64,000 bases of DNA from the human T2T-CHM13v2.0 reference genome, Homo sapiens. Location: assembly GCF_009914755.1 (NCBI RefSeq), contig NC_060927.1; one strand, 5' to 3'. The notes beneath the pieces are model-generated. The model did no database searches. It was given only the letters and a program-made list of their open reading frames with translations, and was not told where the DNA came from. A program made the translations under genes and the position numbers. This document shows positions 33,482-64,000 of the stretch, piece by piece (the first letter of the stretch is position 1; each line of letters starts with the position of its first letter).

Positions 33482-36400
33482 TTTTTTTTCTTTTTGTAAC
33501 TTTCATTTTAGGTTCAGAGGTACATGCACAGGCTTATTATAGGTAAATTGCATGTTACAGGGATTTGCTGCACAGATTATTTTTTCACCAAGGTAATAAG
33601 CATAGTGCTCAATAGATAGTTTTTCAATCCTCACTCTCCTCCCATTCTCAAGTAGGCCTCAGGGTCTGTTATTTTCTTCTTTGTGTCCATGTGTATTCAA
33701 TGTTTAGCTTCCACTTATAAGTGACAACATGCAGTATTTGGTTTTCTGTCCTGATTAGTTTGCTCAGGATTATGACCTCCAGCACCAACCATGTCACCAC
33801 AAAGGACATGAATACATTCTTTTTTATGGTTGTGTGTTTCTCGTTTGCTTGGTTGATTTTCTCTATCTCTTTATTTTGAGCCTATCCATGTTGTTTCATG
33901 TGAGATGGATCTCTTGAAGACAGCACACAAATGAATTTTGCTTCTTTATCCAGCTTGCGATGTTGTGCCTTTTAATTGATGCATTTAGCCCATTGCCATT
34001 TAAGGTTAATATTGATAGTGCAGATTTAATCCTGTCATCATGTTTTTAGCTGGTATTATACATACTTGATGTGTAGTTGCTTTATAGTATCAATGGTCTA
34101 TGTACTTAAGTGTGTTTTTGTGGTTGCTGATAATGATCTTTCCTTTCCATGTTTTGTACTCCCTTCACAACCTCATGTAAGGCATATCTGATGGTAATTC
34201 TTTCAGTATTTGCTTATCTGAAAAGGATCTTATTTCTCCTTTGCTTATGAAGCTTAGTTTGGCTGAATACAAAATTCTTATTTGGATTTTATTTTCTTTA
34301 AAAATACTGAATCTAAGCCCCCAGTCTCTTCTGGCTTGTAGGATTTCTGCTGAAAGGTCTGCTGTTAGCTTGATGGGGTTGCCTTTGTAAGCAACCTGTC
34401 CCTTCTCTTTAGCTGCCTTTAACATTTTTTCTTTCATTTCAACCTCAGAGAATCAGGTGACTCTGTGTCTTAGGAATGATCATCTTGTATAATATCTTGC
34501 AGGCGTTCTCTTCATTTCCTGGATTTGAATATTGGACTCTCTAGCGAGGTTGGGGAATTTTTCATTGACAATATCTTGAAATATGTTTTCTAAGTTGCGT
34601 GCTTTCTCTCCCTCATTTTCAAGGATGCCAATGCATCAGAAATTTGATCTCTTTACATAATCTCATGTTTCTTGGAGGTTTTGTTTATTCTTTTTATATC
34701 CTTTTTTCTTTATTTTTGTCTGACCAAGTTAACTTTGGAGAACTGGTCTTCAAGATCTGAGAGTCCTTCGTCAGCATGGTCTACTCTGCTGTTAATACTT
34801 GCAATTGTATTGTGAAATTCTCAAAGTGAGTTTTTCAGCTCTGTCACTCTATCACATCAGTTTGGTTCTTTCTTAAAATGGCCATTTCATCTTTCAGCTC
34901 CTGTATTGCATTATTGTATTCCTTAGCTTCCTAGGATTGGGTTTCAATCTTCTCCCAAATCTTGATCATCTTTCCTATCCATATTCTGAAGTCTATATCT
35001 GTCATTTCTGTCTTTTCAGCCTAGTTAAGAACCACCACTGAGGAAATGGAGTGATCGTTTGGAGGTAAAAAGACACTCTGGCTTTTTGAATTGCCAGAGT
35101 TTTTTGCACTGGTTCTTTCTCATCTTTGATATTACTGTCCTTTGGATGGGGATTTTGGCTTTTATCTTCTTTGATGCCCTGGGAGTTAGATTGTGGCATA
35201 TGATGGGTTCAGTCAACTGGCTTCATTTATTTCTGGAAGATTTTAGAAAGCCAAGGCTCAGCTCTACACTGCTGGGCTGCATGTTTTAACTCTGGGAGGC
35301 TGGTACTGGGCCCCCAGCCTTGTTCTCTGGCCCCTCAAGGTTAGGAAGCTGCTGCACTGGAGAGACTGAGGTGTTCTTGTCCACTGGCCACCACACTCTG
35401 ATGGGGAGGGGTGCTGGTCAAAGCATGTCACTGGAGTAGTGGCAGTGGGATCCATGCTGGCTCATGCATACCAGCAGCCACAGCAATGTGGCAAGGTGCA
35501 CACATGTTGGCTTGCACAGAGCAACTGTGGGAGCAGGGAGGTGGTGTTCCTGCACATGTTTATGCCAGTGATGACAGCACAGCAAGGGCAGTACACTAGC
35601 AGAGATGGAGTTGCTGGTGTCCATGTATGCATTCACACCGGCAGCATTGGTGGCGGTGGTAGCAGGGGTTGGGGGGAGAACAGTGTTGCCAGCATCTGTG
35701 CACACATTAGTGCTGGCACAGGAGTGAACCTGCATGTTAATGGCAGGGGGAAGCAACAAGGTGGACTCATACAAGCACAGCGATGGAGAATGGCCATGAG
35801 CAAATGCATGTCAGTAAAGCATTACGGGAGGGCTGTGATAGGGTGAAGCTGTGCGTGGGCTGGTTCATGTAAGTGGGGCCTGGTCTGCTGGAGTTCTCTG
35901 ATAATCAGGCACAGTCTGCCATTGAAGGAGCTAAGTCTGCCATTGAAGGAGCTATGATGAGGGTTCCTAGAAGCACCCCTGTTGGGTATCCAAGGCTGCA
36001 CTTCAAGCAAGCACGACCAGACTGGCTCCCCAAGAGAGGCCAGCAGGTAACAGAGCATCAGATCAGGCATCAGGCCGCATCCCACGAGCAAGACTGCCCT
36101 GCTTTGTCTAGCTCTAACAGTCATATTGAGGCTAAAGTATCCTGGAGAAGCACAGTGAGCCTTGGAGGATGGCCGTCCCTGGATGTGCTTCACTGCAGCT
36201 GTTCTCCCACCACTCTGGGCTCTGCATAGGCTGGAGTCCTGCCCATATGACCTCTCTGAGCAGCTTTTCCTACCATCTCAGATGCCCATAGAGGTTGAGG
36301 GACCTACCAGAATGGGTCCATGGTGAGAGCAGGCCACTCCTCACCTGTAAACTCACCCTTCCCCCAGGAGTCTCTGAGGGCCAGGTACAAGTCCTGAGGC

Positions 36401-36592
36401 TCAGCCACACTATGCAGGGTTTCCAGCTTCCTCTCTCTTCAGCCCAGCATCTGCATCCTCTCTGCATCCACTCTTAATGCCTTCCATCAGAAGATCTACT
36501 CAGAGGTGTGTTATAGTCTTTCCAATGTCCCAGTCTCTCAGTGGGAGATATTTCTCCTGGCCACATCTAGTCAGCAATCTTGGCAATTCTCC
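33482..36592 (-). mobile_element. L1PA15/16-like element with both ends but most of ORF2 missing
   Basis: 3'UTR 33482-33835 joined directly to the ORF2 N-terminus; ORF1 relics MKEKMLKAAKEKGQVAYKGNPIKLTADLS (34165-34437) and MRKNQ; 5' end ccaagattgctgactagatgtggccagg; weak TSD atagtttct/atggttct. Confidence 0.9.
35913..35954. repeat. Perfect 21-bp tandem duplication
   Basis: agtctgccattgaaggagcta twice. Confidence 0.97.
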
Positions 36593-43299: not shown

Positions 43300-43450
43300 G
43301 TCATGAGATCACAGAATTTGAAAAGTTAAGAAAGCTTAAATAATTGGTAATGCAACCCCTAATTTTACAGATGAAAGGAAAGATACGATGCTGAATTTGC
43401 AAGAACACAATTGTCTCAGATTCCTTTCTCATGTTATTTCCACTACACCA
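43300..43450 (-). mobile_element. MIR3-like fragment
   Basis: atcacagaattt...caacccctaattttacagatga...ttccactacacca. Confidence 0.6.
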
Positions 43451-43929
43451 AAATGTTGACTGCAGACATTTCCACAGAATCTTGCAAACAGCACCAAAGA
43501 ATTCATTTGCAACTATTTGTACAATGCAAAATATTTCAAGAATTTGAAATCGAAAGACCTCTTACAGAAGTTTATTGAAGATTGTTACTTTTTGATAAAG
43601 CAAAATATTTTGCCTAAACTAGATATACACCTGCATTTGAATCTATTTCATTGTCCTACCAGACAATAAATGGCCTTTGAAGGTAAAAATGGATTTACTA
43701 CTTAAAATCATTCAAGCATATGCAGTCAGAACTGTGGAAAGCAGTAAGTGCAGTTATCAAGTAAAATTCCCAAAGTGTATAACCTTCTCTCATCCAGCAT
43801 GTTAAGCCTTTTGGCAAAGTTTATTAGCATTTTAAAAACACTAAAATGAAAAATAAAGTCTCCCTACTTTTAGAATAAACTAAAATATACTGAATACCAA
43901 TGCTTCAGGAACTTTAAGAAACACTTTCA

Positions 43930-46382
43930 AAGGGGGAGGACACAGCCACGTGGAACAGCTCCCACACAGGGCCTGAGACAGTTGGCGTGCTTTTAACAGA
44001 TCTTCAGAGGGACGGTATTGAGAATGGACAGAGGGAAGACCCAGAAGCTAGACTGAAGGGGGAGAAAGCTGGAAACTCTGCACAAGGCTACTGTGCACCA
44101 GAACTCATTTTTGGACCATAACAGCACTAGGGGAATGGGTGAGTTGAATTGGTAAGGAGCAACCCACTCTTGCCACAGGCCTCTGGAACCCCAGCATGAG
44201 GAGACCCCTTGACTACCACTGACACATGAGTTGGCAGAGAGACCTGCTTAGAGAATTTGAAAAATTAAGAAACCTTAGAGAAGCGGTAGGGGCAGAAGCC
44301 AGCTGATGGGGAAATCAGAGGGTTTGGTGTGAGAACATCTGCAGCAGAGCATGTCCAGGGACAGTCATCTTCTTAGGCCCAAGTTGCTCCCACTGAGACT
44401 TCAGCCCTCGGGGAGCTGTTGGACCTGATCTCTGCAGGGTGGTCTTGCCCATCAGATGGGGCTGGTCAAATCTAAACATCCTTTGGTCTGCTGTCCTCTC
44501 CTGAGACCCCAGCCTGGCCATGGCTGCTTGCAGGGCAGTCTTGGGTACCCTTGGGGCCTGAACAATAGCTTCTGTGCTGGTTGACCATGACCAGTGGAGA
44601 ACTCCAGAGAGGCGGCCCCTATGGTGGTACATCAGCCAACCTGCTCCCTCCCCGTACTGCAGTTTCCCCTGTGACCGTGGTAACTCCCTACATTGCTTTG
44701 CTGGCACCTGTCTGCATAGGCAGGTTTGCTTTCCTTATCCCACCCAGGCAAAGGAGTTCAGTCTGCCCGCCCTTCCCTTACTGCCCTGCCATTGTAGACA
44801 AAGCCTTGGTGGGCACAGAGCCAGCAAGGCTCACCACCTTCCTTGTAATAACATTGCACAGAGAACAGCAGATCCTCCTCCACCCTGAGCAATCACTCCT
44901 GCTTGTGGGGTACAGAGAAAGCACCCAGACCTGAACTTGCCAGCACCTCACCCCGAAGCCAACACCACCTACAGCACAACCATGTGCAGTCTCCAGCATG
45001 GGCCCCTGCCAACCCAGCTGCATTGCCTCCACCACTGTGGTACATGCCTGCAGGGAGGCAGGCACTCTGGCACCCACTAGCACTCTACCATAGCTGCTGC
45101 ACCTCAGCTCCCTCAGTGCAATGAATTCCAAACCTCAAGGATCCAGATCCAAAGAACAAACTCAAGGCCCAAGTCCCCCAGATTTAGAGCACACAGTCCA
45201 GGAGTTGGGAGCTAAGGAATGACCACCTAAAGTCTCTCAGAAAGAAAGCCAGATGGCTGAATCCACCTTCTACTACAATCAAACCCTCAAGGTCACCAAA
45301 CAGGATAAAAGAAATAAAACCCATTTGAAGGTCAACAACCTCCAAGATTGAAGGTAGATAAGCTCTCAAAGATAAAAAAGAATCAGCAAGATAACTCTGA
45401 AAACTCAAAATGCTGGAGTGCCTTCTTTCCTCCAAATGACTGCATCACCTCTCCAGCAAGGGTTTTGAACTGAGCTGAGATGGCTGAAATGACAGTAATA
45501 GAAATCAGAATATGAATAAGAAAAAAGGTCATTGAGCTACAGGAGTATGTTGAAACCTAATGCAAGGAAAGTAAAAATTACGATAAAACAATGCAGGAAC
45601 TGACAGACAAAATACCCAGTATAGAAAAGAATATAACAGACCCAGCAGAGCTGAAAAACAGTACAAAAGTTTCATAATGTAATCACAAGTATTAATAGCA
45701 GAATAGAACAAGCAGAGAAAAGAATCCCAGAGCTTGAATACTGGCTTTCTGAAATAAGACAGCCTGACAAAAATAAATAAAAAAGGATGAAAAGGAACCA
45801 ACAAAACCTCCAAGAAATATGAGATTATGTAAAGAGACCAAATCTTCAACTCATTGGTGTCCCTGAAAGAGATGGGGGAGAATGCCAACTTGGAAAACAT
45901 ATTTCAGGATATCATCCATGAGAACTTCCCCAGCCTAGCTAGAGAGGCCAATATTCAACTTCAGGAAATACAGAGAACTCCAGTAAGTTACTTCACAAGA
46001 AGATCATCCCAAGACACATAATTATCAGAGTTAAAATGAAAGAAACATCAGCTGGCTTCTGCCCCTACCGCTTCTCTAAGGTTAGTCAAATGTTAAAGGC
46101 AGCTAGAGAGAAAGGTCAGCTCACCTACAAAGAAATTTCATGTTCATGGGTAGGAAGAATCAGTATCATTAAAATGGTCCTACTGCCCAAAGCAATTTAT
46201 AGATTCAATGCTGTTCCTATTAAACTACCATTGAGAGGAGGAAGGAGAGGATCAGAAAAAAATAACTAATGGATACTAGACTTAATACCTGGGTGATGAA
46301 ATAACCTGTATAACAAACTCCCATGACACAAGTTTACCTGTATAACAAACACACACATACCCCTTAACTTAAAAGTTAAATA
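43930..46382 (+). mobile_element. L1PA13-15-like element, both termini present, collapsed and rearranged
   Basis: 5'UTR and ORF1 to 46132, ORF2 sliver 46133-46234 ([31 protein letters not shown]), 3'UTR 46235-46382; 14-bp TSD aaga(a/c)acactttca at 43916-29 and 46383-96. Confidence 0.92.
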
Positions 46383-47222
46383 AAGACACACTTTCACATA
46401 CATCATCTTAATCTCATGACTCTAAAAAGCTAGTGGAAATCTTTATTTAACTGATGATGAATTTAAGGTTCACAAAATTAAGTTACTGATCTACAATCAC
46501 ATAAATATAAATGATAAATATAAATATAAATCACATAAAAATAAAAATATAAATAAGAGAGCCAGGTCTCCAACCTGAGTCTCAATTCCAAATGCCATAC
46601 ATTTGACTATAATTATTTCAGAAAGCCTCTTGAATTTTTGGTTTATGTGTTTGTTTTACCACAGAAAGTCAATATTAGAGAATGTTCAGCAAAATGGAAA
46701 CAAATTTAATATGATCCTATTACCTGGAATAACTTTTCTATTTTTCATGTGTTCCCCAATGATATTTATCCAAAAGCATTCATAATTTTACACAGCTCTA
46801 ATCCCAGTGTGTGTTAATTTTTATTAAGATTTTGACTTACTTAACATGCTACCATGATTTTACATATGCTTTTTGCTATTTTCATGATTGTATAATATTT
46901 AATTACTTCATTGGACAGTGATTCATTCTAGTTTCCACTAATATTGGATAATTAATACAGTAAAAAACAATTTTGTACATATAGCTTTCTACTTTTGTTT
47001 CAATATTTCTTTATGCTACATTTCCAAGAAATTAAGACTCCTGAATTAAGAGCAGATTTTTAAATGTCTTTTTATAGTATCGACAGCTTGCTTTCCAAAT
47101 GCATTATATAAATTTACAGTGTATTATTGCATTTGGTGTTCATAACACCCCACAATCACAAAGTTCTAGTGAACCCACGATTTTTGGGAATTTAGCGAGA
47201 TTCACAGTAAGTACAAGGTAAG

Positions 47223-50028: not shown

Positions 50029-50772
50029 TGTGTCCAGAATTGGTTCCTTCCAGTGGGTTCTTGGTCTCGCTGACTTCAAGAATGAAGCCGCGGACCCTCG
50101 TGGTGAGTGTTACAGTTCTTAAAGATGGTGTGTCTGGAGTCTGTTCCTTCAGATGATCAGAGTTTCTTCCTTCTGGTGGGTTCGTGGTCTTGCTGACTTC
50201 AGGAGTGAAGCCACAGGCCTTTACAGTGAGTGTTACAGCTCTTAAAGGTGTCACATCCAGAGTTGTTTGTTCCTCTCAGTGGGTTCGTTGTCTCGCTGAC
50301 TTCAGGAATGAAGCCGCAGACCCTCGTGGTGAGTGTTACAGCTCATAAAGGTAGTGTGTACCCAAAGACTGAGCAGCAGCAAGATTTATTGTGAAGAGTG
50401 AAGGAACAAAGCTTCCACAGAGTGGAAGGGGACCCAAGCGGGTTGCTGCTACTAGCTTGGGTGGCCAGTTTTTATTCCCTTATTTGGCCCCACCCACATC
50501 CTGCCGATTGGTCCATTTTACAGGGTGCTGATTGGTCCATTTTACAGAGTGTTGATTGATGCATTTACAAACCTTTAGCTAGACACAGAGTGCTGATTGG
50601 TGCGTTTTTACCGAGTGCTGATTGGTGCATTTAAAATCCTTTAGCTAGACACAGAGTGCTGATTGGTGCATTTTTACAGAGTGCTGATTGGTGCATTTAC
50701 AATCCTCTAGCTAGACAGAAAAGTTATCCAAGTCCCCACTGGACCCAGAAGCCCAGCTGGCCTCACCTCTCA
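50029..50772 (-). mobile_element. LTR12-family (HERV9) solo LTR
   Basis: Minus strand starts tgagaggtgaggccagctggg and ends accaattctggacaca; six CCAAT boxes, three U5 repeats; 4-bp TSD ttgg/ctgg. Confidence 0.93.
50465..50700 (-). promoter_or_regulatory. LTR12 U3 promoter: CCAAT (NF-Y) array plus AATAAA TATA-like box
   Basis: ATTGG at 50507, 50531, 50596, 50621, 50662, 50687; tttatt at 50471; activity not shown by sequence. Confidence 0.55.
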
Positions 50773-61997: not shown

Positions 61998-64000
61998 GGA
62001 TTCCTGGGCAAGATGGCCGAATAGGAACAGCTGCAGTCTGCAGCTCTCAGTAAGATCAATGCAGAAGGTGGGTGATTTCTGCATTTCCAACTAAAGTACC
62101 TGGTTCATCTCACTGGGACTGGTTAGACAGTGGGTTCAGCCCATGGAGGGCAAGCAGAAGCATGGTGGGGCATTGCCTCACCTGGGAAGCACAAGGGATC
62201 AGGGAACTCCCTCCCCTAGTCAAGGGAAGCCTTGAGGGACCCTGCCATAAGGGACATGGCTATCTGGCCCAGATACTATGCTTTTCCCATGGTCTTTGCA
62301 ACCCACAGACCAGACGATTCCGTTGGGTGCCTACACCACATGGGCCCTGGGTTTCAAGCACAAAACTGGGTGGCCATTTGGGCAGACACTAAGCTAGTGC
62401 AGGAGTTTTTTTGGACCCCAGTGGCACCTGGAATGCCAGCAAGACAGAACCCTTCACTCCCTGGAAAGGGGACTGAAGTCAGGGAGCCAAGAGGTCTTGC
62501 TCAGTGGATCCCACCCCCATGGAGCCCAGCAAGCTAAGATCCACAGGCTTGAAATTCTCGCTGCCAGCACATCAGTCTGAAGTCGATGTGGGATGCTCGA
62601 CCTTGGTGGGGAGATGGGTGTCTGCCATTACTGAGGCTTGAGTAGGTTGTTTCCCCTCAGGGTGCAAAGAAAGCTGCCAGGAAGTTTGGATTGGGCAGAG
62701 CCCACTGCAGCACCACAAAGCCTCTGTAGCTAGACTGCCTCTCTAGAGTCCTCCTCTCTGGGAAGGCCATCTCTGAAAGAAAGGCAGCAGCCCCAGCCAG
62801 GTTATTTATAGATAAAACTCCCATCTCCCTCAGACAGAGCACCTGAGGAAAGGGGCAGCTGTGGGTGCAGCTTCAGCAGACTTAAATGTTCCTGCCTGCT
62901 GGCTCTGAACAGAGCAGCAGATCTCCCAGCATAGTGTTCGAGCTCTGCTAAGGGACAGACTGCCTCCTCAAGTGGGTCTCTGACCCCCGTGCCTCCTGAC
63001 TGTGAGACACCTCCCAGCAGGGATCGACAGACACCTCATACAGGAGAGCTCCAGCTGGCATCTGGTGGGTGCCCCTCTGGGACAAAGCTTCCAGAGGAAG
63101 GAGCAGGCAGCAATCTTTGCTGTTCAGCAGCCTCTGCTGGTGATACTCAGGCAAACAGGGTCTGGAGTGTACCTCCAGCAAATTTCAGCAGACCTGCAGA
63201 AGAGAGGCCTGACTGTTAAAAGGAAAACTAAAAAGGAGAAAGCATTAGCATCAACATCAACAAAAAGGACGACCATGCAAAAACTCCATCTGAAGGTCGC
63301 CAACAGCAAAGACAAAAGGTAGATAAATCCATGAAGATGAGGAAAAACCAGCTCAAAAAGGGTGAAAATTCCAAAAACCAGCATGACTCTTCTCCTCCAA
63401 AGGATCACAACTTCTCACCAGCAAGGAAACAAAAGTGGACAGAGAATGAGTTTGATGAATTGACAGAAGTAGGCTTCAGAAGGTGGGTAATAAGAAACTT
63501 CTCTGAGCTAAAGGAGCATGTTGTAACCCAATGCAAGGAAGCCAAGAACATTGAAAAAAGGTTAGAGAAATTGCTAACTAGAATAACTAGTTTAGAAAAG
63601 AACATAAATTACACAATGGAGCTGAAAAACACAACATGAGAATTTTATGAAGCATACACAAGTATCAGTAGCTGAACTGATCAAGCAGAAGAAAGGATAT
63701 CAGAGGTTGAAGATCAACTTAATGAAATAAAGCATGAAGACAAGATTAGAGAAAAAAAGAATGAAAAGGAATGAACAAAGCCTCCAAGAAATATGGGACT
63801 ATGTGAAAAGACCAAACCTACATTTGATTGGTGTACCTGAAAGTGACAGAGAGAATGGAATCAAGTTGGAAAACACTATTCAGGATATAATCCAGGAGAA
63901 CTTCCCCAACCTAGCAAGACAGGCCAACATTCAAATTCAGGAAATACAGAGAACATCACAAAGATACTCCATGAGAAGAGCAACCCCAAGGCACACAATG
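61998..64000 (+). mobile_element. L1PA7/8-like element: complete 5'UTR and ORF1, continues beyond the window
   Basis: caagatggccgaataggaacagct 5' end; ORF1 MRKNQ...WTENEFDELTEVGFRRWVI from 63337; premature stop at 63637. Confidence 0.93.

What the first reader, a model, noticed from the sequence alone, without database searches (positions are those of the whole stretch)
44271..46087. Perfect 38-nt inverted self-copy linking two rearranged sites 1.75 kb apart
46046-46083 (catcagctggcttctgcccctaccgcttctctaaggtt) is the exact reverse complement of 44271-44308 in the same L1's 5'UTR. It is inserted, with agtc, into ORF1. The paralogous L1 in this window (34412-34453, minus strand) shows the native context attctctgaggttgaaatgaaagaaaaaatgttaaagg. 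So this site also lost a 9-mer of the form ttctcNNag just upstream, approximately the reverse complement of the cttagagaa duplicated at the donor site. The donor therefore overlaps the other templated insertion, and the two sites share a 9-12-nt inverted microhomology. The DNA between them is not inverted. My inference is one multi-switch repair event among three templates, or serial events guided by a foldback. Perfect identity, including a CpG, against a TSD with a mismatch suggests it postdates L1 insertion or is kept homogeneous by conversion. In RNA it would form a 38-bp perfect long-range duplex.
Basis: partly seen in the sequence, partly recalled or inferred. Interest (0 to 1): 0.8.

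Follow-up and report, generated by a model that had tools for sequence, protein, structure and literature searches.

The report
Templated repair scar in dead L1
An old, broken L1 retrotransposon carries a 38-base inverted copy of its own leader pasted into its first gene, which is the footprint of a DNA-copying enzyme that switched templates during replication or repair; it is a clear example of a known kind of mutation, with no sign of function.

Summary
Window 46046-46083 is the exact reverse complement of 44271-44308. With a 4-nt filler it forms a 42-nt insertion in ORF1 that 34 of 34 related L1 copies lack. A 9-mer present in those 34 copies is missing 16 nt upstream. The donor spans the junction of a second locus-specific insertion, a 27-nt block in the 5'UTR that all 26 aligned relatives lack (31 of 31 by pairwise comparison). 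The new part of that block matches single-copy flank 939 bp upstream.

The copy reproduces three private features of this 5'UTR, so it was made here. It is much younger than the element: the L1's own branch is about 0.10-0.15 substitutions per site, against at most 0.039 since copying.

The last 12 nt of the tract match (11/12) the native ORF1 sequence that contains the missing 9-mer. The deletion and the insertion are therefore linked.

This is a post-insertional, microhomology-guided template-switch scar of the MMBIR/FoSTeS or SD-MMEJ class, which is known and common in human germlines. Two things are unusual: the template distances (0.9 and 1.7 kb) and a block order that no simple path reproduces. 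Whether there was one episode or two cannot be settled without primate orthologues. I see no evidence of function. Interest is low to moderate.

The parts
43313..43338 (+). Single-copy upstream flank; the likely template for the new part of the 5'UTR block (AGAA microhomology, 18 nt copied at 16/18, then CTTA microhomology)
   Evidence: 24/26 match, with 0 of 100 shuffles giving a second match in the window; one of only 2 non-self genome matches at 2 mismatches or fewer, lying 939 bp away; the segment is single-copy.
43921..43931 (+). Left target-site duplication of the L1
   Evidence: 10/11 identical to 46388-46398.
43932..46385 (+). One L1 insertion (5'UTR, most of ORF1, a 108-nt ORF2 piece and the 3' end) with two large internal deletions
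   Evidence: collinear blocks against chrX relative L087; family relatives.
44256..44282 (+). 27-nt locus-specific block in the 5'UTR: 18 new nt (44256-44273) plus a second copy of the native 9-mer (44274-44282; first copy at 44247-44255)
   Evidence: absent in 26 of 26 relatives; absent in 31 of 31.
44271..44308 (+). Donor arm. It spans the right junction of the 27-nt block and carries three private features (AAC, C at 44284, one base missing after 44295)
   Evidence: column tallies (0/26, 0/26, 25/26 have the base)..
46029..46030 (+). Point where a native 9-mer (TTCTCCAAG in most relatives) is missing
   Evidence: the 9-mer is present in 34 of 34 relatives; 22 of 26.
46030..46045 (+). 16-nt native ORF1 block retained, now to the left of the inserted tract
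46046..46083 (+). Inverted copy of 44271-44308. Its first 6 nt contain ATCAG, repeating 46024-46028. Its last 12 nt match the native ORF1 12-mer at 11/12
46084..46087 (+). 4-nt filler (AGTC) before ORF1 resumes with no loss in its A6 run
   Evidence: an 11-mer spanning it is inverted at 46599-46609, but P=0.08.
46599..46609 (-). Possible fourth template for the filler (a lead only, not significant)
   Evidence: P(11 or more)=0.079 in 1000 Markov shuffles.
46129..46132 (+). Junction of the first large internal L1 deletion (about 2.7 kb in relative L087 coordinates). Whether it belongs to the same event is unknown
46236..46237 (+). Junction of the second large internal L1 deletion. Whether it belongs to the same event is unknown

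Best explanation
This is a neutral mutational scar in a dead L1. Long after the element inserted, a replication or repair polymerase left its template in ORF1 and copied 38 nt of the opposite-sense strand of the element's own 5'UTR, 1.74 kb away. It then returned to ORF1 after adding 4 nt of filler, and a 9-mer 16 nt upstream was lost in the same process. What brought the two sites together was an inverted microhomology. The L1 family natively has CTTAGAGAA in the 5'UTR and TTCTCCAAG in ORF1. In this copy the match is lengthened to 11/12 by the last 3 nt of an earlier or simultaneous 27-nt templated insertion in the 5'UTR, which was itself copied from flank 939 bp upstream using 4-nt microhomologies at both ends. 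The class is microhomology-mediated template switching (FoSTeS/MMBIR at a stalled or broken fork, or multi-round synthesis-dependent end joining on a resected break). Shown: the copy, its donor, its locus specificity, its youth relative to the L1, and the non-random microhomology. Inferred: the enzymology, the order of the switches, and whether the 5'UTR and ORF1 changes arose in one episode (my estimate is about 0.5). The element has no function that I can see.
For: The identity is exact and both junctions are unique. The insertion is absent from 34 of 34 relatives and the 5'UTR block from 26 of 26. The copy shares three private donor features, so the donor is this 5'UTR. The L1 branch is about 0.10 (ORF1) and 0.15 (5'UTR) substitutions per site, so 38/38 identity at the element's age has a probability near e^-9.5; the 95% bound since copying is 0.039 per lineage. 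The 12-mer at the exit end of the tract matches native ORF1 within 30 nt of the site, with a chance probability of about 1e-4. ATCAG at the entry end repeats the ORF1 bases just left of the missing 9-mer, P about 0.015. The flank template for the 5'UTR block is shown. Apart from the 42-nt ORF1 insert itself (the pairwise alignments break off there), the 27-nt block is the only other window-specific insertion of 5 nt or more across the 5'UTR and ORF1, and the donor overlaps it, with a chance probability of about 0.016-0.026. Zero of 53 relatives have any inverted self-match of 20 nt or more. From the literature, passages read: inverted templated insertions from foldback or template switching, with capture by end joining (PMC11724301); about 100 germline MMBIR-type templated insertions of 25 bp or more per person, some with up to five templates (PMC8421209); the four-point template-switch model in great apes (PMC7954356); and snap-back synthesis that creates new microhomology (PMC5728401).
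Against: The actual junctions of the tract show no microhomology: 46045/46046 has 0 nt, and 46083/46088 is separated by 4 nt of filler. The simple product predicted from the two microhomologies is not what is seen, because the 16-nt block 46030-46045 lies on the wrong side of the tract. Every path I tried needs three or more junctions in ORF1 (note). The template distances of 939 and 1737 nt are well beyond the ranges in which such events have been catalogued: within 100 bp in PMC8421209, tens to hundreds of nt in PMC7954356, and fewer than about 25-30 bp for SD-MMEJ primers in PMC5728401. There are no orthologue, population or read data, so neither the age nor the single-episode idea is directly tested. 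The two mismatches between flank and 5'UTR block against none in the 38-mer lean weakly towards two ages.
Confidence: 0.85

Rival explanations
1. Two or more independent events occurred at different times. First came the 27-nt templated insertion in the 5'UTR. Later, a separate template-switch or end-joining event in ORF1 chose this donor because the first event had lengthened the inverted microhomology from 8/9 to 11/12.
For: There are two mismatches in the 26-nt flank match against none in 38 nt. By my own rough calculation, not a tool call, the Bayes factor is only about 1.8 in favour of two ages. The C at 44273 differs from the flank template yet is reproduced in the ORF1 copy, which fits a substitution occurring between the two events. 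A lengthened microhomology gives a mechanistic reason for the donor overlap.
Against: The first event would have had to strike exactly at the 9-mer that is the native inverted partner of the ORF1 site, which is a coincidence of about 0.005-0.01 in a 2.46-kb element (my estimate). The conditional test does not reject a single age (P=0.13-0.17). Error-prone repair synthesis, or later changes in the flank, could explain the two mismatches.
Confidence: 0.4
2. The arrangement was made during retrotransposition, by twin priming or a reverse-transcriptase template jump, and so is as old as the element.
For: L1 insertions often carry 5' inversions: 18-22% in PMC12016303 (passages read). The whole element lies inside one target-site duplication. 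It also has two internal deletions that could be template jumps.
Against: The element is collinear apart from a 38-nt duplicated tract, whereas twin priming inverts the 5' part of the element. Perfect identity at the element's age has a probability near 1e-4. The copy includes AAC from a block templated by flanking genomic DNA, which cannot have been in the L1 RNA. An inverted copy of the 5'UTR would need a minus-sense template that does not yet exist when the cDNA reaches ORF1 (inference).
Confidence: 0.02
3. Assembly or polishing artefact in this genome.
For: None from my calls. Reads could not be examined.
Against: The insert is a clean 42-nt unit with two unique junctions in non-repetitive context, and the ORF1 frame resumes exactly. 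From my own knowledge, not from a call: long reads span both arms with ease, and assembly errors rarely produce a microhomology-structured inverted copy.
Confidence: 0.02
4. A functional element: a selected long-range 38-bp RNA or DNA duplex, for example in the intron of the minus-strand lncRNA or flanking the annotated enhancer at 44854-45353.
For: The predicted duplex energy is -79.8 kcal/mol in either sense. Both arms lie in one intron of LOC105374235, and they bracket the RefSeq enhancer interval (annotation supplied with the finding).
Against: Perfect identity is what a recent copy gives without any selection. The origin is fully explained as a repair scar. No conservation data could be obtained. 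From my own knowledge, introns hold far longer inverted Alu pairs, so a 38-bp stem with a 1.7-kb loop is unremarkable.
Confidence: 0.02

Closest known systems
MMBIR/FoSTeS templated insertions (MMB-TI; PMC8421209, passages read)
   Same: An inserted tract that is an inverted copy of nearby sequence. Microhomology is involved. Complex forms use several templates (up to five reported). Present as germline variants, at about 100 of 25 bp or more per person.
   Different: The catalogued events were sought only within 100 bp of the insertion. Here the templates lie 939 and 1737 nt away. The literal junctions here are blunt or carry filler, and the microhomology instead relates to a neighbouring 9-nt deletion point.
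Short-range template switching, four-point model (PMC7954356, passages read)
   Same: The ORF1 insert fits the 3-2-1-4 point order, which creates a perfect inverted repeat. The tract length of 38 nt is within the reported range (median 12, maximum 128).
   Different: That model covers one excursion within tens to hundreds of nt. This allele also needs a 9-nt loss, 4 nt of filler and a reordered 16-nt block, so a single excursion does not describe it.
Foldback or snap-back synthesis at resected breaks with end-joining capture (PMC11724301; SD-MMEJ, PMC5728401)
   Same: The orientation is what a resected 3' tail copying its own upstream sequence would give. The newly made 3' end carries a 12-nt match to the ORF1 side, as in synthesis that creates new microhomology. 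Filler and a small flanking deletion are typical.
   Different: Reported loops are tens of nt (41 nt in the yeast system; primer repeats under about 25-30 bp apart in SD-MMEJ) and most tracts are under 35 nt. Here the loop would be 1.7 kb, and no primer microhomology exists at the start of synthesis.
L1 twin priming (5' inversion) (PMC12016303; the original Ostertag and Kazazian 2001 paper was seen only as a citation)
   Same: Inverted L1 sequence inside an L1 that is flanked by a target-site duplication.
   Different: Twin priming inverts the 5' part of the element at the time of insertion. Here a short tract is duplicated, the element is otherwise collinear, and the copy is far younger than the element and contains flank-derived bases.

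Membership tests
Template-switch / MMBIR-type templated insertion | The inserted tract is an exact or near-exact copy (often inverted) of sequence elsewhere on the same molecule | tested here: met
   38/38 inverted identity. The 5'UTR block matches the flank at 24/26 in direct orientation.
Template-switch / MMBIR-type templated insertion | The tract is absent from the pre-event sequence | tested here: met
   Paralogues serve as a proxy: 34 of 34 and 26 of 26 lack the inserts. True orthologues were not available.
Template-switch / MMBIR-type templated insertion | Microhomology at the switch points | tested here: inconclusive
   The 5'UTR block has 4 nt at each end. For the ORF1 tract, 11/12 and 5 nt of microhomology relate to the flanks of the missing 9-mer, but the literal junctions have 0 nt and a 4-nt filler.
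Template-switch / MMBIR-type templated insertion | The template lies close by (operationally within 100 bp in MMBSearch; tens to hundreds of nt in the four-point scans) | tested here: not met
   The distances are 939 nt and 1737 nt.
Pol-theta end joining / SD-MMEJ snap-back insertion | A short primer repeat next to the break primes synthesis on the same resected strand | tested here: not met
   There is no complementarity between the 3' end at 46045 and the bases beyond 44308.
Pol-theta end joining / SD-MMEJ snap-back insertion | Dependence on Pol theta, or on Pol delta plus end-joining factors | not testable with these tools
   This needs genetics or biochemistry.
L1 twin priming | The 5' portion of the element is inverted relative to the 3' portion, formed at insertion | tested here: not met
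   The element is collinear with relative L087 in one orientation. The tract is duplicated, not moved. It is younger than the element.
Gene conversion / NAHR between inverted repeats | A pre-existing homologous tract at the recipient site | tested here: not met
   Native ORF1 has only a 9-12-nt match to the donor, and 34 of 34 relatives have no homologue of the 26-nt core.

The most novel reading that the evidence does not exclude
All the rearrangements in this element may be the fossil of one break-induced, error-prone replication episode in the germline, with five or more template switches across about 3.3 kb (43313 to 46609). That covers the 27-nt 5'UTR block, the 42-nt ORF1 insert with its 9-nt loss and filler, and perhaps the two large deletions whose junctions lie 45 and 150 bp further on. 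In that reading, the second excursion copied the junction that the first had just created. The template would then have been the freshly made, still single-stranded nascent strand folding back on itself over 1.7 kb. That would be a natural record of nascent-strand foldback at kilobase range, and a micro-scale counterpart of chromoanasynthesis that current templated-insertion callers would miss, because they search within 100 bp or a few hundred.
Probability: 0.3. Interest if true: 0.45.

Novelty: new member of a known kind. Interest (0 to 1): 0.25.

Why it matters
The finding has no functional consequence that I can see; the value is methodological. It is a clean, neutral, fully resolved example in which templated patches draw on templates 0.9 and 1.7 kb away. 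That lies outside the search radius of the tools used to catalogue germline template switching, so such catalogues may undercount longer-range events. The donor tract spans a junction made by another templated insertion. Dating the two changes on the primate tree would therefore show whether germline repair can chain several switches and re-use its own nascent product as a template.

Tried and rejected
1. Recurrent feature of the L1 family or an inherited arrangement: rejected. No other copy has the junctions, 34 of 34 relatives have no insert, and 0 of 53 have an inverted self-match of 20 nt or more.

2. The 24/26 match to the left junction on another chromosome (L070): this is unrelated non-L1 sequence and I treat it as chance.

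3. The 5'UTR block copied from a dispersed repeat: rejected. 43313-43349 is single-copy and only the neighbouring Alu tail recurs. Genome-wide, the AT-rich 26-mer has 4 non-self matches at 3 mismatches or fewer against 5 for the reversed control, so the word itself is not rare. The argument rests on one of the two best matches lying 939 bp away.

4. Extension of the inverted repeat to 52 nt (I1): the extra 14 nt match at 8/14 in AT-rich sequence, which I judge to be chance.

5. A template for the AGTC filler: an 11-mer spanning it is inverted at 46599-46609, but P=0.08. I keep it as a lead only.

6. Simple paths for ORF1: I worked through by hand a single excursion with return by the 12-mer, snap-back from either side of a break at the 9-mer, and extension of both ends followed by blunt joining. 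None gives the observed block order (note).

8. No search was possible in primate genomes, human variation or raw reads.

Full report
**What is there.** Window 43932-46385 is one L1 insertion. It is flanked by an 11-nt target-site duplication with one mismatch, at 43921-43931 and 46388-46398. Against a near-full-length relative on another chromosome (L087) it is collinear and in one orientation. It lacks about 2.7 kb between ORF1 and late ORF2 (junction 46129-46132) and a further stretch before the 3' end (junction 46236/46237).

Inside this element, 44271-44308 and 46046-46083 are exact reverse complements over 38 nt. The DNA between them is not inverted.

**Native state of both sites.** I collected related L1 copies from the same genome and aligned short stretches around each site.

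At the 5'UTR site, 26 of 26 relatives lack a 27-nt block. A pairwise-gap method gives 31 of 31. The block is 18 new nt (44256-44273) followed by a second copy of the native 9-mer CTTAGAGAA (44274-44282; the first copy is at 44247-44255).

At the ORF1 site, 34 of 34 relatives read ATCAGA, then a 9-mer (TTCTCCAAG in most), then a 16-nt block, then AAATGTT. Thirty-six relatives were tried and 2 were dropped for partial coverage. The window reads differently:
- ATCAGA, ending at 46029;
- no 9-mer;
- the 16-nt block (46030-46045);
- the 38-nt inverted tract (46046-46083);
- AGTC (46084-46087);
- then AAATGTT, with the A-run neither shortened nor lengthened.

Across the whole 5'UTR-ORF1 stretch, flags only one window-specific insertion of 5 nt or more, the 27-nt block. 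The pairwise alignments break off at the ORF1 insert, so that second insertion rests.

**Where the pieces came from.** The 38-nt tract reproduces three features private to this 5'UTR:
- AAC from the 27-nt block (0 of 26 relatives);
- C at 44284 (0 of 26; 25 have T);
- a missing base after 44295 (25 of 26 have a base).

Its 9-mer is the 5'UTR type, which only 1 of 34 relatives has natively in ORF1. The donor is therefore this very 5'UTR, after or together with the 27-nt insertion. Both junctions of the ORF1 insert occur once in the 3.1-Gb genome. A 24/26 match on another chromosome lies in unrelated sequence.

The new part of the 5'UTR block matches 43313-43338, 939 bp upstream and in direct orientation, at 24 of 26 positions: AGAA, then 18 nt at 16/18, then CTTA. 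A second match never arose in 100 shuffles of the window. Genome-wide the AT-rich word is not rare, with 4 non-self matches at 3 mismatches or fewer against 5 for a reversed control. However, one of the two best matches lies 939 bp away, and that flank is single-copy. A switch out at AGAA and back at CTTA explains both the 18 new bases and the duplicated 9-mer.

**Age.** Pairwise distances under a star tree, with no consensus built, put this element's own branch at about 0.10 substitutions per site in ORF1 (25 relatives) and 0.15 in the 5'UTR (24 relatives). If the copy were as old as the element, 38/38 identity would have a probability near e^-9.5. The 95% upper bound on divergence since copying is 0.039 per lineage, and the median is 0.009. 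By my own reckoning from commonly quoted primate divergences, which I did not test here, that places the event within catarrhine primates and possibly much later.

The two mismatches in the 26-nt flank match against none in 38 nt do not reject a common age (P=0.13-0.17).

**Non-random structure.** The last 12 nt of the tract match at 11/12 the native ORF1 12-mer that contains the missing 9-mer and lies 16 nt upstream of the insertion point. The chance of such a match within 30 nt either side is about 1e-4. The start of the tract contains ATCAG, which repeats the ORF1 bases just left of the missing 9-mer (P about 0.015).

The 9-nt loss and the insertion are therefore parts of one process, organised by an inverted microhomology that the L1 family carries natively (8/9). 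In this copy it is lengthened to 11/12 by the AAC of the 27-nt block. The donor overlapping the only other insertion in the element has a chance probability of about 0.016-0.026.

**What does not fit.** The product expected from those two microhomologies would place the tract between ATCAGA and the 9-mer and leave the 16-nt block in place. In the window, the 16-nt block lies left of the tract, and four filler bases stand where its last 13 nt used to be. The literal junctions have no microhomology.

I worked through one-excursion, snap-back and two-ended extension paths by hand. Each needs three or more junctions in ORF1 (note). An 11-mer spanning the filler occurs inverted at 46599-46609, but that is not significant (P=0.08).

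**Mechanism and comparison.** The orientation is what results when a nascent or resected 3' end copies the same-sense strand upstream. Yeast work shows short inverted templated insertions made by foldback at inverted microhomology, with the product captured by end joining, and multi-step switching akin to MMBIR (PMC11724301, passages). Human germlines hold about 100 MMBIR-type templated insertions of 25 bp or more per person, some drawn from up to five templates, but these were sought only within 100 bp (PMC8421209, passages). Great-ape scans with the four-point model find copied tracts with a median of 12 nt and a maximum of 128 nt, and they search the near vicinity (PMC7954356, passages). 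SD-MMEJ describes snap-back synthesis that creates new microhomology for the other end, with primer repeats usually under 25-30 bp apart (PMC5728401, passages).

This locus belongs to that class. It differs in its template distances (0.9 and 1.7 kb) and in its block order.

Twin priming (PMC12016303, passages) is excluded because the element is collinear, the tract is duplicated rather than inverted, the copy is young, and it contains flank-derived bases. Gene conversion is excluded because the recipient site had no homologue.

**Function.** The arms would pair at -79.8 kcal/mol as RNA in either sense. According to the annotation supplied with the finding, they lie in one intron of a minus-strand lncRNA and bracket a RefSeq enhancer interval. 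Nothing suggests selection, since perfect identity is simply what a recent copy gives.

**Verdict.** This is a new instance of a known mutational process in neutral DNA. I score interest at 0.25. The boldest reading still open is a single multi-switch germline episode that re-used its own nascent product as a template and perhaps also made the nearby large deletions. I put that at about 0.3, and primate orthologues would test it.

Noticed in passing
window 46029-46237: Four rearrangement junctions fall within about 210 bp of one TSD-flanked L1: the 9-nt loss, the 42-nt insert, and the junctions of two large internal deletions at 46129-46132 and 46236/46237. The deletions could be template jumps during retrotransposition or part of the later repair episode. 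They are not dated.
   Followed up: partly
window 46599-46609 (minus strand): An 11-mer spanning the AGTC filler and the resumed ORF1 bases occurs inverted about 515 bp downstream. It could be a fourth template, but the match is at chance level (P=0.08).
   Followed up: yes
L070 (another chromosome), locus positions about 1501-1526: A 24/26 match to the left junction of the ORF1 insert lies in unrelated, non-L1 sequence. By my own estimate this is rarer than expected for 2 mismatches or fewer, but I found no biological link.
   Followed up: partly
window 34383-36497 (minus) and 63280-63999 (plus): Two further L1 pieces covering ORF1, about 69-71% identical to the element studied. The first overlaps an exon of the lncRNA in the supplied annotation.
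   Followed up: no
window 50040-50359: Three copies of a 94-nt unit at spacings of 123 and 103 nt (76-88% identity), probably the internal repeats of a known interspersed repeat. I did not identify it.
   Followed up: no
window 44838 and 45128: Two window-specific deletions of uncertain length (5-19 nt) relative to most relatives, in the variable part of the 5'UTR. The alignments there are ambiguous.
   Followed up: no
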